A DNA stretch of 64,000 nucleotides from Octopus vulgaris (taxonomy: Eukaryota): NCBI GenBank assembly GCA_951406725.2, contig OX597843.1, positions 18,538,001 to 18,602,000 of the forward strand, given 5' to 3'. Numbering within the stretch: position 1 is the first letter of the stretch; every line of letters begins with the position of its first letter. The position numbers were made by a program. Of this stretch, positions 23,401-35,700 are shown one piece after another.

Positions 23401-26262
23401 TTGATATAACATTAAATTGGCAAGAAGATAGAATATCAATATAATTTCAAATCATGCAATATTTTCTGTTTCAAGCCATAGTGAGGCCCTGAAACTTGCT
23501 TAAATTACAATATGGTGGATTGGATTATACAGTCTCATGCATGCATAGTGTTGTATTGAAACGTACAATTATAGTGTCGTTACAAGGAAAACATATTTCA
23601 TATTATATATGGAGAAAATATTATTTTATATTATTTATGAAGAAAATATTTTTTCATATTATATATGGAGAAAATATTATTTGGTATTATATATGGAGAA
23701 AATTTTATTTTGTATTATATATGCAGAAAATATCGTTTTATAGCATAAAATATCATCAAAGACGATTCTTGGAGGCTCTTTTTCGATTTTCATTCAAAGG
23801 TTTGTTTCTGCTGTTCTATCCTCTGTTCCATTACCAGTTCTTGAACCTGGAAACATAATGAAAAAACATAAAAATAAAATTTTAAGCACATTAATTACCG
23901 GATAGTATTAATTTGCATATATGTATATGTTTATTTCTTACTATTTGAACTGTTAGAGCTGTTTTCGCTATGTATCCAGTACAACCCTTAAACAAGTAAA
24001 TAATATTTCCCTAAACAATAGATCAGCGTATTTCAGTTAGTGACTTATTCACGAATATACCATGAATGACGATGCCTTTCACGTTACTTCAGCCAATTGA
24101 CAAGCGCTGATGGAAGAACTGTTCTGCTTTTAGACAAATACACTGTCAACACAAAGGTCACATCCTGTTTACATGTAGGAACACTTTCTTAAAATCTATC
24201 TGTACATCTTGAAAATGGCCAGCATGCATATTTCACAGAAGACAATGCTCGAAACGTAGATATGAATTCATGAGGAACTACTTTGACATCTTTCTTCAAA
24301 TTATGCCAATGTGATCTGTTTGCCCGAACACTGTTGTACGTAGAGATCCCCGTGTACTCTACCTGGGCACACAATATATATATGCACTCATATATTTATT
24401 TTTTTTTTTAAATAATAAATTAAATGACCATCCCGAAATATGTGTGTGTATATGTATGTATATTTTTACATTTTCTCGACAATATATAATTTGTTATGAG
24501 ATTTGACTAGTAAAAATGCTACTGTCTGTTTCGCGGCCTCTATTGTTGCATTTCGTCAATATTGACCAATACTTAGACATACTGACCGGATGCGCATAAA
24601 CCTCATTTATGCCGGAAATAGACAGATTTATAATGGTTTGTCAGTGGTAAAATGAAATGAATGGAAACAAAGTGAAAAAAATTATATCATTGTTCGGCAA
24701 TGGGATATGCTTTGTTCCTCTTGTATATCCCTTAGACATGAGTTAAAGCGTATGAGCTGTGTGTGTGTCTATCGATCCTAATTCAAAATTTAATATGATC
24801 ACTTCGAACAAAATGAAATTCCGCTGAGGAAAATTATTTGCAGCACTAAATATTTTTCCTGTTTGAATTAAAGCAAGTACTGGAATTGTGTGAATTATTC
24901 TGCCCAGTAGAGTCTGCATCTTCTACTTCTATACAAAATAAGAACACATTTTTGCCCTCGGTTAATTAGTATAATTAAAAAGAAAATGAGCAAAGACAAA
25001 CAGTTCCGTAGGGACAAGAAACGGAAAAGCGCAAAATAAAATGCTGATATATTGAAATTATCCAAGCTTTTAGAAAATGTAAATAAAAAGTTGTATGTAT
25101 GAGAAGGAGGGGGAGAGCCTGTGTGCTTGTGTGCGCGCGTGCGTGTCCTAAGGTATCAGCCATTGTGGTTGATGATGACGACAACGACGAAGAGGATGAT
25201 AATGGTGATTGATGAAGCTAATTATGACGGTAATGGTGATAAAAAAATTAAGAAACACGATACTTACTTTCATCAAGGAATTTCGTGTGACTTTTCTGGA
25301 CTCCTAAGTTAAGGAATGCCTGGGATTTGTTCAAAACTTGGGAGATATTGCGCCGCAGTTCACTTTGAACACTTAAAGAAATTAATTGTTTTATTTCAAT
25401 TATTTTTTATATTCAAATATAGCATAAGATTGGATCATCATAGTTAAAATAACCGCATTCAGTATGGTTAAGAACAGAATTAGTGAAGAAGGCTAGAACT
25501 ACAAGCGGGTGACTAAAAGTTGGCCTTAAGAATATATTCGTCCAGTACCGTGGCTTGCCCTCTTTAGCATGTAAGAAATCCACATGGTGGTCTTCCCTCT
25601 GTGTATAAATTTTTATATACATTTTATATATATATATATAATTTCCTCGTTGGTTTTAAATTGCGTGTTAGCCACCTTAAATGTTTTATAATCTTCACAT
25701 AGCCATTTTGTGAAATCAATCACTCATTCTTATGGCCTTCTCAGTGATACCGACAGGCGGGAGTTAGCCTCCACCAGCAGTAATGGAGTGAGCATTGCTG
25801 ATGAGTATTAACTTCCTATAAGAAATTACCATGCTAATCTAATCCATCTGGCTTACCGTGGGGAATGTTGTTCCCCACTGTCAATGCACCATGTGTTTTT
25901 TTATGGCTAAGGTGTCTATGACTATAATTTAACACACTACCCGGTAAAAGGTTGCAAGACACAACGAAAAGTTTTAGGAAAATGAAAATAAGAAATACGT
26001 TGAAATGTTACTGGTGAGTGTGTTAAATTATAAGGCACAAAAAGAAAATGGTTCTCCCCAGACATAACAGAATATGCTTCAACACACGAACTCATATAAA
26101 TAATTTTGGAAACCAAATCCCAAAACGAAATAGTCTATGACTAATATTTCTAACAATGCTGGTGCTCATTGCACTCTTGTCACTTTTAGTGACTGTGAAT
26201 TGTTTCTATGTTTGTCTTAAAATGCTGATAGCAACCATAATTTATATATACACACTCAGACA

Positions 26263-26354
<92 letters not shown>

Positions 26355-26687
26355 AAATACGTTCGTATATGTAAATATATCGTATGTTGTATATGTATAT
26401 ATTTGTAATTATTTGCTTTTCTGAGTATATTCCACTGATGAAGGCAGAACATTTCTTATGCAGAGTCAGAAATCCGGGATCTGGAATTATCCAGTAATTT
26501 TTGCTAGTTTATTTTGTCTCTTCGTCTTCTCTCCTGGTGCTCTATGAACATTTAATGTGGTTTAGTCAAGATTTGACTGCTATTACCCTATATTATAATT
26601 TTAAATAATTATTACCTTTGATTGTTTTTTCCCATGCTGGCCACTTGATAAAATCGATATTTAAATATTGATTTTATCCTTCTGTGA

Positions 26688-26723
<36 letters not shown>

Positions 26724-32387: not shown

Positions 32388-32426
<39 letters not shown>

Positions 32427-32722
32427 ATGTATGTATATCACGTGATCACGTTACCGACCAGTCCATCAGATGTAGTTACACATCGCTGTTCACAATACGT
32501 TCGCATTGTTTTAGCCTTCGAATGAGGCCACCCCGCTGGCTAAGCGAGCAGGCTAATAGAAGAAAGAGTGGTGAAAGAGTACAGCAGGGATCACCATCCC
32601 CTGGCGGAGCCTCGTGGAGCTTTTAGGTGTTTTCGCTCAATAAACACAACGCCCGGTCTGAGAATCGAAACCGTGATCCTACGACCGCGAGTCCGCTGCT
32701 CTAACCAATGGGCCATTGCGAC

Positions 32723-32785
<63 letters not shown>

Positions 32786-35700
32786 TATATATAACCATGC
32801 CCACACTTGCATACATATGTATTAGAATACGATTGTTCCTTTCCAGCAACACAAAACCATGCAATGGTCATTTTTTATATTGGTTTTGAAACAAAAAGCC
32901 TACAGTTACAAAGAAAATGACAATTATAAAAGCACAGTAAAATAGAACACAAAAGAAATATCTAAACCGGTTTTCATTAATTTGAATATCCTGTGTGCGA
33001 AGAATACATTGTATGCAAGCAAGAGGGATATTATCGTTTGGAAAGAGAATCGCTTTCAATTGAAATTTCAGGAAGAAAAATTTCTGGCCTTTTCTCTCTC
33101 GCGTCGCTTAATTTAGGCCTTTTGGACACAGTTTCTGCACTCTTCATACTTGCAGGCCTTTTCATTAGAAATATAGCAAGAGAAGTATGCTTTTACCTGC
33201 CTTTCTATTCAAACTTTAGTAGTTTTTCTGTGCCACACTGTAAATACTCGGCTAAGCTTTTTTTTCCATCTGTACACATTCGTCTACTGCTATTAAGCAT
33301 CTCCCAGTCTGGTCTTTCCTTAATTACAGTCGGATGTTGAGCTCCACATATTTTCAGCAACATATTAGTTTTTGTCAAATTTCTTTATTTTGATTAATAT
33401 TATTTCTCTTTATCACATGTTTTCTAGGAGTTTCTTGAGGCTTGCATTGTCGGCGTTCCTGGACACTTGCTCATTCTAATGTCGACCCTCCAGTTTGTGG
33501 CCAAAGCTTACTCTTGCGCTGCCAATATAGTGTTCTCGGTCTCTTTCTTTAGAATTCCTTTCATCAGCCAATCCCACCTACTTTTTGTTATATGGAAATT
33601 CATTGTATACTCCCTTCTTGAGCCATTCTTCTTCATTTCTTTTTGTGTTTCTTCCTTCGTTTTTCCTGCTTTCAATACTCCCTCATTCCTAACTGTCACT
33701 AGTAAGGTTTCCTTACTTTGGGTTCGGTATCTCATTAAGCCTTCGAGTTCGAAACTCACGCAGTTTCCCACACTTATCAGTCTTCTTCCTCCATTCCCTC
33801 TCTTCGCGTATCGGCGATCAATGTCTGCATATGGATGATGGGCTCCACACATCGTTAGGACCTTTCTTGACTTCCTGTCCATCTCCTTTAGCTTCTTCTC
33901 TGTCCACTTCAGTTTTCCAGGTTTCAAAACAATATTTTGCTCACCCGCCAAAAGTGCTCTCTTTTTCTCTTTTCCTTCATGTCGTGGTGTTTGATTCCAT
34001 CTGTGTGTGTGTGTGTGAGTGTGAGTGAGAGAGAGAGAGAGAGAGTGTGTGTGTGTTGGGAGAGAGAACATTGCAAACGATGAATGAAATGAATATGAAA
34101 TGAATAAATCGTGTAAATAAAAGGGCATAATCAAAGGAACAATGCAGGTTTCAAATATTGGTACGTGACCAGCAGATTCTGTGCAGGGGTTAAGTTGATT
34201 ACATTGACCCAGAGCTCAAATTTTGCTTATTTTATCGACACAGAAATGATGAAAAGCAAAGTCAATCTCGGCGGAATTTGAACTCAGAACATAAAGACGG
34301 ACGAAATAATGCAAAGCATTTCTCCCGGTCTGCTAACGATTCTGCCAGCTTACCGCCTAATTTAAGGATTAATATTATTAAACAGACAGATAGTCACTCA
34401 CAAAAATTACTTCTTCTCATCCTGCTACTTCTACTGCTGTAAAAGTCATTTAAAAACATTTGCTCGCTCACCATCATCAATGTCTTTGCTTTCGATATCC
34501 TTTAGTCCTTGTGTGGTCTGTTCTGCATTGTAACATTGAGACATGTCTGGTTCTTGCCAGATACCAGTAAACGGTGAACACTTTTGTGATGACATGTTTT
34601 GACTTGATGCCATTTCTGGATGCCCCACTGTTCTGGGAGAACTGAAAAAATAAATGTTAAATATTGTCAGTCGAGTTTATTCATTCTTAGGAGAATTTCA
34701 TCAGTCTCAGAGGAATATAAGAAACCTTCGAACTGGTCGGGATTTGAACTCATACTTTAGTGAAAGAAGGATAAATGGTGTATTGCATTTAGGGAATAAA
34801 TCTATTATTTACTCCTGATCCCTATCCTCAAAACTAATGTCATATATTTTCTAACTAGAGTTCAGATATAAACACAATATCCTGCCTCTGCTTGTATTTA
34901 CAAAAAATTGTTGTTTTTATGATTATTCAATACAAGATTAGTTGGAACGGTGTAGGTGATGCAATATTAAAGAACCGGGATGTTAGTTCAAGTTGAGTGG
35001 GGAAATTAGTTGCTAATATTTCGCCACCATAGACATCAGTAGCAACAGCGGCAGCAATGGATTTACGTATATTTTCCTACATATGCACAGATTTGAGTAA
35101 TTCCACCAGTTGGTCTTGTCTTAAAACTAATAAAGCTCAGCCTCTGGGAGGAACAATTTAGATGCTTAACCTGTGGAATGACGTGGTAGAAATGAGAGAA
35201 GAGAGACCGTGTTACATAGTTTGTGATGAGTAAAATGCCAGGATGACCATCATGTACTAGCAAGATATATAGCTCTACAGTAATCATAAAATTGAATAAA
35301 TAATATTAGCCTGAAACCAACAGAATCACCGATAGATTCTATTGGCTGTATCTAGGTATGTGCTTTCTTTCCTACAATTATTTTGTGAAATTCTTACAAG
35401 AATCTTTAAATCTTTGAATAATGCTGATTTCAAATTTTGGCACAGGGTCAGCTATTTTGGGCTGGGATAATTCAATTACATAGACCCCAGTGTTTAATTG
35501 GTACTTATTTAATCGATCCCGAAAGGATGAGAGAGAAAGTCAACCCTAGTGGCATTTGATCTCAGAATGTAAAGACGGAAAAACTGCTGCTAAGCATTTT
35601 GTCCGGCATGGTAACGATTCCGCCAGCTCAGCACCATAAAGCATTGTCTAATATTGGTTTCAAATTTTGGCACAAGGCCAGCAATTTTAGGGGAAGGGAT

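What the first reader, a model, noticed from the sequence alone, without database searches (positions are those of the whole stretch)
23794..34641. Gene B lacks GAIN and all 7TM exons but stays in frame to a receptor C-tail: candidate secreted decoy ectodomain
Seen: after the HormR exon (ends phase 1) the next recognisable exons are a second SEA set (starts phase 1, ends phase 1) and then the terminal exon (starts phase 1, …ETNL*). Joining all twelve exons gives about 433 in-window codons with no stop and no transmembrane segment. The gaps (5.7 kb of mostly TE relics, and 1.4 kb) contain nothing resembling gene A's 7TM exons. Inference: either a soluble LRR-LU-SEA-HormR-SEA' protein next to a signalling paralog, a chimera of two deleted tandem paralogs (pseudogene), or an assembly collapse in a tandem array.
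Basis: partly seen in the sequence, partly recalled or inferred. Interest (0 to 1): 0.78.

Follow-up and report, generated by a model that had tools for sequence, protein, structure and literature searches.

The report
Octopus adhesion-receptor gene lacking membrane part
This is an already annotated octopus gene that keeps part of the outer portion of an adhesion receptor but has no membrane-spanning portion; it is one of a whole group of such genes, and this copy has also lost its front end, so it may be inactive.

Summary
Twelve minus-strand exons (61206..23794), all with AG/GT borders, give 426 codons plus a stop, with no hydrophobic span. No GAIN or 7TM relic above chance lies in the two gaps. 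The model is not new: each exon is 100% identical to a public NCBI protein of Octopus vulgaris (P0021, 426 aa, 'ADGRG6-like').

The layout HormR -> second, shortened SEA-like exon set (SEA') -> receptor tail exon is not special to this locus. 16 of 26 relatives found with the HormR exon share it, from O. vulgaris and O. sinensis and from several contigs. All 13 SEA' copies tested form one clade (100/98). Assembly collapse and a locus-specific double deletion are therefore rejected.

Staying in frame is expected. Every module of this family is bounded by phase-1 introns.

Gene B itself is a recombinant. Its 5' exons are closest to the 7TM-bearing paralog P0005, and its 3' exons to the 7TM-less group. 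Its LRR part has decayed, and no signal peptide lies in the window. 'Secreted decoy' is therefore plausible for intact family members but unsupported for this copy, which is probably a young, still spliceable remnant.

AlphaFold and Foldseek on a paralog support SEA and HormR, with zebrafish Gpr126 as top match. SEA' is not confidently folded.

The parts
61071..61206 (-). Gene B exon 1 as annotated: cysteine-rich cap after the LRRs ('LRRCT' is my label, recalled). The ORF starts at an internal Met. Phase 0->1.
   Evidence: 100% identical to P0021 residues 1-45. Borders. No Pfam family.
61233..61350 (-). Decayed remnant of the last LRR unit upstream of exon 1. It has stops in both candidate frames and a frame shift relative to paralogs.
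   Evidence: Alignments to P0004, P0028, P0032, P0033 and P0040 run through stops. The match is split between two frames at 61282-61253 and 61248-61204.
55500..55591 (-). LU-like exon 1, phase 1->0.
   Evidence: 100% to P0021 and 100% to P0005. Borders.
54049..54232 (-). LU-like exon 2, phase 0->1.
   Evidence: Pfam UPAR_LY6_2 E=0.019, 15.6 bits, below the cut-off of 31.5. Borders.
51649..51731 (-). First SEA set, exon a (S1a), phase 1->0.
49382..49431 (-). First SEA set, exon b (S1b), phase 0->2.
   Evidence: 17 of 17 residues identical to P0005.
39806..39963 (-). First SEA set, exon c (S1c), phase 2->1.
36167..39805 (-). Intron that holds gene B's own recombination joint. Exons upstream are P0005-like; exons downstream are of the 7TM-less type.
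   Evidence: Exon-wise identities. SEA1 pairs with P0005 at 100/99. HormR sits with the SEA'-bearers at 90/94, and the AU test gives p=5e-6.
36052..36166 (-). HormR exon 1 (H1), phase 1->2.
   Evidence: Pfam HRM E=0.0048, 17.7 bits, below the cut-off of 26.2. Borders.
34472..34641 (-). HormR exon 2 (H2), phase 2->1.
   Evidence: This exon was the query.
28783..34471 (-). 5.7-kb intron with no GAIN or 7TM relic. It holds a young element with inverted arms (29276-29783 / 30699-31207), interspersed repeats and microsatellites.
28700..28782 (-). SEA' exon a (S2a), phase 1->0.
26936..26988 (-). SEA' exon b (S2b), phase 0->2, one codon longer than S1b.
25268..25371 (-). SEA' exon c (S2c), phase 2->1, 54 nt (18 codons) shorter at its 5' end than S1c (acceptor shift).
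26709..28941 (-). Block duplicated from 49151-51888 (74-80% identity), introns included. Homology ends at 28941, so the ancestral 5' joint of the SEA' insertion lies just upstream of 28941.
24603..25360 (-). Block duplicated from 39266-39898 (75-80% identity): exon c plus about 660 nt of the following intron.
23868..24602 (-). Interval holding the ancestral 3' joint, between the intron after SEA exon c and the last intron of a receptor gene.
   Evidence: Homology to the S1c intron ends at 24603. Homology to gene A's last intron starts at 23867.
23794..23846 (-). Terminal exon, phase 1, ends ..ETNL then TGA. It is homologous to the cytoplasmic tail exon of the 7TM paralogs.
22799..23867 (-). 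Terminal exon plus 3' flank. It is an inverted duplicate (76-78%) of gene A's 14700-15677.
801..14773 (+). Gene A, the convergent 7TM paralog. In-frame matches at about 801-917, 3034-3162, 5092-5235, 7052-7126 and 12877-13265, with the terminal exon at 14721-14773 (..ETNI). The last 7TM exon ends in phase 1.
   Evidence: Within exon limits it is about 99-100% identical to P0001, O. sinensis. Pfam 7tm_2 on two exons. Sequence read.

Best explanation
Gene B is a real, already annotated member of a subfamily of 7TM-less derivatives of an ADGRG-like adhesion receptor family. Named members come only from Octopus vulgaris and O. sinensis. The full receptor layout is LRR - LU-like - SEA - HormR - GAIN - 7TM - tail.

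In an ancestor of the subfamily, a copy of the three SEA exons came to lie behind the HormR exons, and everything from there to the last intron (GAIN and 7TM) was lost. Transcripts therefore splice HormR -> SEA' -> tail exon. This stays in frame because every module in the family is bounded by phase-1 introns. The layout then spread by gene duplication.

The copy in this window is a recombinant. Its 5' part (cap exon to first SEA set) comes from a lineage close to the 7TM-bearing paralog P0005, and its 3' part (HormR to tail) from the 7TM-less lineage. Its LRR region is decayed, and no signal peptide is encoded in the window. As annotated it would make a 426-aa, cysteine-rich protein with neither signal peptide nor membrane span.

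Shown: the anatomy, the family, the single origin of SEA' and the mosaic. Inferred: this copy is probably a young, still spliceable, non-secreted remnant, while intact relatives are probably secreted proteins.
For: Anatomy: 12 of 12 exons have AG/GT borders and consistent phases, 1281 nt in total. Each exon is 100% identical to the NCBI O. vulgaris protein P0021, found with one exon as query.

No 7TM or GAIN: P0021 has 0 hydrophobic 19-mers. The best gap hit is 26.6 bits, reached by 3 of 20 resamples. The same holds for the A-B intergenic region, reached by 2 of 20.

Family: 16 of 26 proteins found with exon H2 carry SEA' marks and no 7TM, and 12 of these end in the same tail. They come from both species and several contigs. 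10 of 10 hits of a SEA'+tail query are O. vulgaris or O. sinensis. O. sinensis names give at least 7 different LOC ids with SEA' marks. 8 of the 16 have a signal-peptide-like start plus LRRs.

Single origin: 13 of 13 SEA' rows form one clade, 100/98. The shared extra codon and the 54-nt shortening are seen.

Phases. An unnamed relative (P0057) joins HormR directly to a tail-like exon.

Mosaic: identities to P0005 are 80/100/95/89/100/94% for the six 5' exons but 78/57% for H1/H2. Identities to P0022/P0025 are 92/94-91/70/89/97% for H1, H2, S2a, S2b and S2c. Trees are, with AU p=5e-6.

Headless: stops and a frame shift in the LRR remnant. No LRRNT or signal-peptide match above noise in 61-64 kb. 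Reverse-transcriptase fragments lie at 62.3-62.7 kb.

Fold, on paralog P0024: the SEA region has pLDDT 82-94 with a strand-helix-strand-strand-helix-strand order, while SEA' has pLDDT 42-53. The only Foldseek hit with E<=0.001 is 6v55, the zebrafish Gpr126 extracellular region.
Against: The 426 codons carry no stop or frame shift. P0021 keeps the consensus residue in 143 of 149 columns that are >=90% conserved in the family, and 21 of 22 conserved cysteines. The acceptor in front of the cap exon is intact. So the copy is not visibly dead, and upstream exons beyond 64000 could still supply a signal peptide.

Lack of a signal peptide may be an annotation limit. The models of gene A's relative P0001 and of P0005 lack one too.

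Constraint tests are weak and neutral. SEA versus SEA' exons are 182/234 identical (77.8%) against 820/1061 (77.3%) for flanking intron. dN/dS is about 0.66 over 74 codons.

Protein clusters include isoforms of one gene, so 16 clusters are fewer than 16 loci. I saw no transcript data. The AU group was named after I had seen the first tree. The fold evidence comes from a paralog, not from gene B.
Confidence: 0.6

Rival explanations
1. Gene B is a working secreted protein, acting as a ligand, decoy or partner of the receptor paralogs. Its signal peptide and LRR exons would lie upstream of the window end and are simply missing from the public model.
For: The ORF is intact across 12 exons, with 143 of 149 conserved columns and 21 of 22 conserved cysteines kept. 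The acceptor before the cap exon is intact. Only 2.8 kb lie between exon 1 and the window end, while introns here reach 9 kb. Intact relatives with a signal peptide exist. Several family models are 5'-incomplete.
Against: The NCBI model starts at an internal Met, and so does its nearest 5' relative P0005. The LRR unit that abuts the cap exon in paralogs is decayed here. The 61.3-64 kb stretch holds retroelement fragments and no LRR match. SEA' is not predicted to fold.
Confidence: 0.2
2. The splice chain is a product of the gene predictor. In vivo, transcripts of this locus end after HormR through intron retention, and the SEA' and tail exons are unused relics.
For: Relatives that end by read-through right after H2 (P0028) or after S2b (P0027, P0030, P0035) are annotated. 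I could see no RNA evidence. SEA' is predicted with low confidence.
Against: All four splice sites of the two questioned junctions are canonical. 12 relatives carry the complete HormR-SEA'-tail chain. Many are numbered isoforms, which usually rest on RNA data; that point is recalled and was not checked.
Confidence: 0.1
3. One reading: two deletions at this very locus fused two tandem paralogs.
For: SEA' and its introns are a 74-80% duplicate of the first SEA set region. Gene B is indeed a recombinant.
Against: The HormR/SEA' and SEA'/tail joints, with the same derived marks, are shared by 16 relatives in two species. SEA' is one clade. The joints therefore predate this locus.
Confidence: 0.03
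4. Assembly collapse in a tandem array removed the GAIN and 7TM exons.
For: The family is tandemly arrayed and repeat-rich.
Against: The window has no N. SEA' is not a copy of a neighbour's SEA but a distinct, shortened lineage. The same layout appears in the independent O. sinensis assembly at several LOC ids.
Confidence: 0.02

Closest known systems
Soluble N-terminal (7TM-less) isoforms of adhesion GPCRs made by alternative splicing or intron retention. Sources: Knierim 2019, PMC6667449, passages; Kuhn 2024, PMC11039983, passages; Bormann 2023, bioRxiv 10.1101/2023.01.11.521585, abstract only.
   Same: Both are an ectodomain without the 7TM part. More than half of mouse and human aGPCR genes give such transcripts. 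Non-7TM isoforms can bind the 7TM form and tune signalling.
   Different: Here the 7TM-less state is fixed in the genome as separate genes with no 7TM exons left, and these genes were multiplied. The product ends with a shortened second SEA copy and the receptor's own tail exon, not a premature stop.
ADGRG6/GPR126 extracellular region, CUB-PTX-SEA-HormR-GAIN (Leon 2020, PMC6954182, passages; PDB 6v55).
   Same: Both have a SEA-HormR tandem. 6v55 is the only Foldseek match with E<=0.001 for the paralog model. The family's 7TM+GAIN profile hits ADGRG2 and ADGRG6 at E 1e-94 and 1e-86. As in Gpr126, the SEA domain is invisible to sequence profiles.
   Different: The N-terminus is LRR plus an LU-like domain instead of CUB-PTX. 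I saw no furin or GSVVV-type cleavage motif by eye. Gene B has no GAIN or 7TM.
Octopus-specific adhesion GPCR expansion, 'group 3' (Ritschard 2019, PMC6408891, passages).
   Same: Very likely the same receptor family: octopus-specific, co-localised, some members with LRRs, and fast evolving.
   Different: That survey collected proteins by the 7tm_2 Pfam signature, so 7TM-less relatives could not appear. It covered O. bimaculoides and C. minor, not O. vulgaris or O. sinensis. I did not read its supplements.
GPCRs with an LU (three-finger) domain in the ectodomain in molluscs and arthropods (Acta Naturae 2026, PMC13719153, passages).
   Same: An LU domain sits in the extracellular region of receptor genes. 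The figure legend lists LRR, LU, GPS and 7TM elements.
   Different: The word 'Octopus' does not occur in that paper's main text. A 7TM-less derivative is not described in the passages I saw.
Human ADGRE4P/EMR4, an adhesion receptor gene inactivated by a frame shift and predicted to give a truncated soluble form (recalled, not checked by any search).
   Same: A gene-encoded truncated adhesion receptor without 7TM.
   Different: It is a single-copy loss by point mutation, not an exon-level rearrangement that was then multiplied.

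Membership tests
Adhesion GPCR (class B2) | Seven-transmembrane domain (Pfam 7tm_2) | tested here: not met
   P0021 has 0 hydrophobic 19-mers and no Pfam family. No 7TM-like hit above chance in the gaps or the intergenic region. Gene A's exons do score 7tm_2.
Adhesion GPCR (class B2) | GAIN domain with GPS motif | tested here: not met
   No GPS motif in P0021. tblastn with GAIN-bearing paralogs finds nothing above chance between 34471 and 23847.
Adhesion GPCR (class B2) | Descent from an aGPCR gene (ectodomain and tail exons homologous to 7TM paralogs) | tested here: met
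   Exon-wise matches to P0001, P0005 and P0006. The tail exon plus 3' flank is 76-78% identical to gene A's.
Octopus 7TM-less HormR-SEA'-tail subfamily (defined here) | HormR exon 2 spliced in phase 1 to SEA' exon a; exon b with one extra codon; exon c shortened by 54 nt; receptor tail exon last | tested here: met
   Gene B's SEA' lies inside the SEA' clade next to P0025, P0022 and P0024.
Octopus 7TM-less HormR-SEA'-tail subfamily (defined here) | Signal peptide and LRR array at the N-terminus, as in the intact members | tested here: not met
   The public model starts at an internal Met. The LRR remnant holds stops and a frame shift. Sequence beyond 64000 is not available.
SEA domain | Ferredoxin-like strand-helix-strand-strand-helix-strand fold | tested here: met
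   This holds for the first SEA region of paralog P0024: pLDDT 82-94 with the matching order of elements, and top Foldseek hit 6v55, E 8.4e-5, 220 columns. It was tested on a paralog, not on gene B. The aligned residues were not shown.
SEA domain | The same fold for the second copy (SEA') | tested here: inconclusive
   pLDDT is 42-53 and the region is modelled as helices. It lacks 18 residues that align to the stretch after strand 2 of the first copy.
SEA domain | Match to the Pfam SEA profile | tested here: not met
   SEA was not listed for any exon or family protein, even at E<=10. The same was true of Gpr126 before its structure was solved (PMC6954182, passages).
Ly6/uPAR (LU, three-finger) domain | Profile match and three-finger fold | tested here: inconclusive
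   UPAR_LY6_2 at E=0.019, 15.6 bits, below the cut-off of 31.5. Foldseek hit to Prod1 (2jve) at E 0.063, prob 1.00, TM 0.65 of target. pLDDT is 68-89 for blocks covering residues 61-150. The cysteine pattern ending CC..x..CN is recalled as typical.
Hormone receptor (HormR/HRM) domain | Pfam HRM at the gathering score | tested here: inconclusive
   Exon H1 scores E 0.0048, 17.7 bits. Paralogs score E 6e-4 to 1e-2. All are below the 26.2-bit cut-off. Supporting leads are the Foldseek match to the Gpr126 extracellular region and Atlas neighbours with HRM at scores 0.80-0.85.
Unprocessed pseudogene | Disabling mutation in the coding exons | tested here: inconclusive
   None in the 12 annotated exons. 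Stops and a frame shift occur in the LRR remnant. Expression and selection cannot be tested with these tools.

The most novel reading that the evidence does not exclude
The O. vulgaris/O. sinensis lineage has used the phase-1 exon modules of one adhesion receptor family to split it, more than once, into separately encoded halves. One half is the ectodomain-only secreted genes (LRR-LU-SEA-HormR-SEA'-tail, at least 7 loci in O. sinensis). The other is the ectodomain-less GAIN-B/7TM-only genes such as P0002. The secreted halves would act on receptor paralogs in the same clusters as diffusible partners or decoys. Gene B would then be a working member whose first exons lie beyond the window.
Probability: 0.2. 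Interest if true: 0.6.

Novelty: new variant of a known kind. Interest (0 to 1): 0.3.

Why it matters
For this locus the result is mostly a correction. The gene is already in the public annotation. Its in-frame state is a by-product of exon phases. This copy lacks what a secreted protein needs.

At family level there is a modest point of interest. Ectodomain-only products of adhesion receptors are known as splice isoforms. Here the state is fixed in DNA and multiplied in two octopus species. The one published survey of the octopus expansion collected proteins by their 7TM signature and could not have seen these genes.

If the intact members are secreted and bind receptor paralogs, they would be a natural system in which to study the trans-acting role of adhesion receptor ectodomains.

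Tried and rejected
1. A third 7TM gene, or gene B's own lost 7TM inverted into the A-B intergenic region. Weak plus-strand hits at 17604-17969, 19839-19991 and 21576-21620 are no better than resamples: best 26.6 bits, reached by 2 of 20. Rejected.

2. An LRRNT or signal-peptide exon in 61.3-64 kb. Only matches with E 0.05-0.4 were found, partly on the wrong strand and inside a repeat also present at 4.4-4.9 kb. Rejected.

3. Pfam on single exons and family proteins gave no SEA; LU and HRM scored only below threshold.

4. A profile of LRR-less and 7TM-less relatives against PDB sequences gave only a spurious condensin hit, E 0.004.

5. ESM Atlas gave no usable hit for the SEA region and only HRM/GAIN leads at 0.80-0.85 for P0025.

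6. A selection test within the window found exon identity equal to intron identity and dN/dS of 0.66 on 74 codons. This is too little data to decide.

8. tRNA and Rfam scans of the window found nothing. The large retroelement-like ORFs have no Pfam family.

Literature searches for this subfamily found no description of 7TM-less octopus genes. That holds only for the library searched.

Full report
WHAT THE WINDOW IS. The window is AT-rich, rich in microsatellites and holds no N. A single exon of the plus-strand gene (gene A) found Octopus adhesion receptor proteins named 'ADGRG6-like' or 'ADGRG2'. Within exon limits gene A is about 99-100% identical to P0001 of O. sinensis. Every exon of the minus-strand gene (gene B) is 100% identical to P0021, an NCBI protein of O. 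vulgaris. I therefore take the window to be O. vulgaris, not human. Genes A and B are convergent. Their terminal exons and about 0.9 kb of 3' flank are inverted duplicates at 76-78% identity.

THE OBSERVATION.
- Gene B has twelve exons with AG/GT borders, 1281 nt in total, giving 426 codons and a stop from the Met at 61206.
- The HormR exon 34641-34472 ends in phase 1.
- The second SEA-like set (28782-28700, 26988-26936, 25371-25268) runs from phase 1 to phase 1.
- The terminal exon 23846-23794 starts in phase 1 and ends ..ETNL.
- The matching public protein has no hydrophobic 19-residue window.

I searched the two gaps with 20 family proteins that include GAIN and 7TM, using permissive settings and masking the three SEA' exons. 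The best hit was 26.6 bits, and 3 of 20 Markov resamples reached that score. The same holds for the region between genes A and B, where 2 of 20 reached it. So no recognisable relic of GAIN or 7TM is left.

The large intron is partly repeat. 2176 of its 5689 nt match elsewhere in the window, and it holds an element with 98-100% inverted arms. In the small intron, 25267-24603 is homologous to the intron that follows the first SEA set.

HOW THE SEARCHES WERE RUN. I searched exon by exon and left the joined step out. No search or fold used window exons joined by me. The joined product is known to me only as the public record P0021, which an exon search returned.

THE LAYOUT BELONGS TO A SUBFAMILY. 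The HormR exon found 26 proteins among 27 candidates.
- 16 of the 26 carry the marks of the second SEA set and no 7TM. 12 of these end in the same tail exon.
- Of the other 10, 3 have a 7TM, 2 are partial models with a GPS motif, and 5 are other fragments.
- The 16 come from O. vulgaris and O. sinensis and from contigs of at least seven different sizes.
- A query made of the SEA'+tail part of paralog P0025 found 10 proteins, all from these two species.
- O. sinensis names give at least 7 LOC ids with the marks, and one more by alignment only.
- 8 of the 16 have a signal-peptide-like start followed by LRRs.
- Clusters include isoforms of one gene, so these are not counts of loci.

SINGLE ORIGIN OF SEA'. 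In a tree of 17 first-copy and 13 second-copy SEA segments, all 13 second copies form one clade (100/98). That clade is sister (89/74) to the first copies of the 7TM-less proteins plus P0004. All second copies share one extra codon in exon b and an exon c that is 54 nt shorter at its 5' end.

In the window, SEA' and its introns are a 74-80% duplicate of 49151-51888 and 39266-39898. Homology ends at 28941 on the 5' side and at 24603 on the 3' side. Homology to a receptor's last intron begins at 23867. This brackets the two ancestral joints.

The shared layout in two independent assemblies rules out assembly collapse. The single clade rules out a deletion private to this locus.

WHY IT STAYS IN FRAME. 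The LU-like, SEA, HormR and SEA' modules each begin and end in phase 1. Gene A's last 7TM exon ends in phase 1, and the tail exon begins in phase 1. Any loss, gain or skipping of whole modules therefore keeps the frame. One unnamed relative (P0057) joins HormR directly to a tail-like exon. Family models also differ by whole modules. The open frame is therefore not evidence of selection.

GENE B IS A HEADLESS RECOMBINANT.
- Its six 5' exons are closest to P0005, a 7TM-bearing O. vulgaris protein from a contig of the same length as P0021's. Identities are 80, 100, 95, 89, 100 and 94%. For the two HormR exons P0005 drops to 78 and 57%.
- For the 3' exons the 7TM-less proteins P0022 and P0025 give 92, 94/91, 70, 89 and 97%.
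- Gene B's first SEA copy pairs with that of P0005 (100/99). Its HormR sits with the SEA'-bearing proteins (90/94).
- A tree that holds the first SEA copies of all SEA'-bearers together is rejected (AU p=5e-6). I named that group after seeing the first tree.
- The joint therefore lies between 39806 and 36166.

Upstream of the first annotated exon, paralogs continue into the last LRR unit. In gene B this stretch has stops in both candidate frames and a frame shift. No LRR or signal-peptide match above noise lies in 61-64 kb, and that stretch holds reverse-transcriptase fragments. The public model starts at an internal Met, as does P0005.

Against a dead gene, the 12 exons have no defect. 143 of 149 highly conserved columns and 21 of 22 conserved cysteines are kept. 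Other family models, P0001 included, also lack a signal peptide, so the annotation may simply be incomplete.

DOMAIN NAMES. Pfam supports LRRs in relatives and 7tm_2 and GPS in the receptors. HRM scores only below threshold, one LU-type family reaches E=0.019, and SEA is never listed.

I folded the O. sinensis paralog P0024, which has the same 3' architecture, using a 58-row alignment. Mean pLDDT was 66.
- The first SEA region has pLDDT 82-94, with the order strand-helix-strand-strand-helix-strand.
- The LU-like region has pLDDT 68-89 (10-residue blocks covering residues 61-150).
- HormR has pLDDT 45-85.
- SEA' has pLDDT only 42-53 and is modelled as helices.

Foldseek against the PDB gave one match with E<=0.001: the full extracellular region of zebrafish Gpr126 (6v55; E 8.4e-5, 220 columns). 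It also gave a three-finger protein, Prod1, at E 0.063 with TM 0.65 of the target. The paper on that structure states that the Gpr126 SEA domain was not recognisable by sequence methods, precedes HormR, and is cleaved between strands 2 and 3 in other species (PMC6954182, passages). The 18 residues missing from SEA' align to the stretch after strand 2. By analogy SEA' would lack strand 3. This is inference.

CONSTRAINT. Between the two SEA sets of gene B, exons are 182/234 identical (77.8%) and flanking introns 820/1061 (77.3%). Nei-Gojobori counts summed exon by exon give dN/dS of about 0.66 on 74 codons. This does not separate relaxed from purifying selection. No paralog DNA was available to do better.

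MOST LIKELY MECHANISM. The subfamily encodes signal peptide-LRR-LU-SEA-HormR proteins that end in a remnant SEA copy and the receptor's tail exon. The tail exon probably serves only as stop and polyadenylation unit. Its T-x-[LFI] end looks like a PDZ ligand (recalled), which would have no use outside the cell. Intact members are probably secreted and could act on receptor paralogs. Splice-made non-7TM isoforms of other adhesion receptors do so (Bormann 2023, abstract only). More than half of mouse and human aGPCR genes make soluble N-terminal transcripts (PMC6667449 and PMC11039983, passages).

Gene B, lacking a head and a signal peptide as far as the window shows, is most likely a young recombinant remnant that can still be spliced. 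I give this 0.6. I give 0.2 to a working secreted protein with unseen upstream exons.

WHAT IS KNOWN. An octopus-specific expansion of adhesion GPCRs, some with LRRs, has been described. It was collected by the 7TM Pfam signature and in other species (PMC6408891, passages), so 7TM-less relatives could not appear. LU domains in molluscan receptor ectodomains have been reported (PMC13719153, passages). My searches found no description of this 7TM-less group in the library held.

NOT CHECKED.
- Sequence beyond the window.
- Any RNA data.
- Cluster members and accession numbers (one search did not complete).
- Supplements of the cited papers.
- Eukaryote genome collections, of which none was on offer.
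- The closed collections metagenome contigs and viral contigs, and genome contigs (bacteria and archaea only), which were not used.

Noticed in passing
19713-19814 (+): An ATG-initiated exon of 33 codons plus 1 nt, with a GTAAGT donor and a phase-1 end. It is 33/34 identical to the first 34 residues of P0002, an O. sinensis 'ADGRG2' protein of 425 aa made of this exon plus GAIN-B, 7TM and tail. No matching downstream exons lie on the plus strand of the window. It is either an orphan first exon or the start of a gene that runs over gene B in antisense for more than 44 kb.
   Followed up: partly
20259-20573 (-): An ORF matching Pfam Ribosomal_60s (acidic ribosomal protein P1/P2), E 8.3e-9, 36.3 bits, above the cut-off. 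It lies in the region between genes A and B and is probably a processed copy.
   Followed up: no
P0002, P0007, P0009, P0011-P0013, P0016 (relatives, not in the window): The family also has short models with only GAIN-B/7TM/tail and no ectodomain. They are the mirror image of the 7TM-less genes, as if the receptor had been split into two kinds of genes.
   Followed up: no
P0057 (relative from an unnamed source): In this 259-aa protein the HormR exon is followed directly by a tail-like exon, with no SEA', GAIN or 7TM. It is another in-frame 7TM-less form allowed by the phase-1 exon structure.
   Followed up: no
61233-61350 (-), and alignment A1 columns about 611-628: Some paralog models read straight from the last LRR unit into the cap exon with 17 extra residues, and others lack them. 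The 51-55 nt look like a mini-intron, but I could find no GT at the expected place in gene B. I do not understand how this stretch is spliced.
   Followed up: partly
29276-31207: An element with near-perfect inverted arms (29276-29783 and 30699-31207, 98-100%) around part of a 299-aa ORF (29771-30670, +). By eye the ORF has a GIY-YIG-like motif. It has relatives at 46.7-48.8 kb and no Pfam family. It is possibly Penelope-like (recalled resemblance) and is a recent insertion in gene B's large intron.
   Followed up: partly
8672-9510 (-); 4365-4877 (-) and 63540-63985; 62261-62724 (+); 57422-57796 (-): Retroelement and transposon fragments. RVT_1 and DUF6451 lie in gene A's TM4-TM5 intron (GC 0.46). 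zf-RVT has an inverted relative at the window end. Weak RVT_1 lies just upstream of gene B's first exon. A DUF4817 helix-turn-helix ORF lies in gene B's first intron.
   Followed up: no
1929-2104, 16771-16936, 34184-34358, 35468-35629, 35656-35816, 50844-50970, 60135-60282; and 9823-9969, 16094-16356, 31878-32431, 37053-37516, 41173-41624, 51029-51376: Two interspersed repeat families, about 170 nt and about 450 nt, with seven and six copies in the window. No tRNA or Rfam match was found.
   Followed up: no
36200-36500 and 44000-46000: A long low-complexity trinucleotide tract lies in the intron between the first SEA set and HormR. A GC-rich stretch (GC 0.51, GC skew +0.60) holds a 512-aa minus-strand ORF without a Pfam family.
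   Followed up: no
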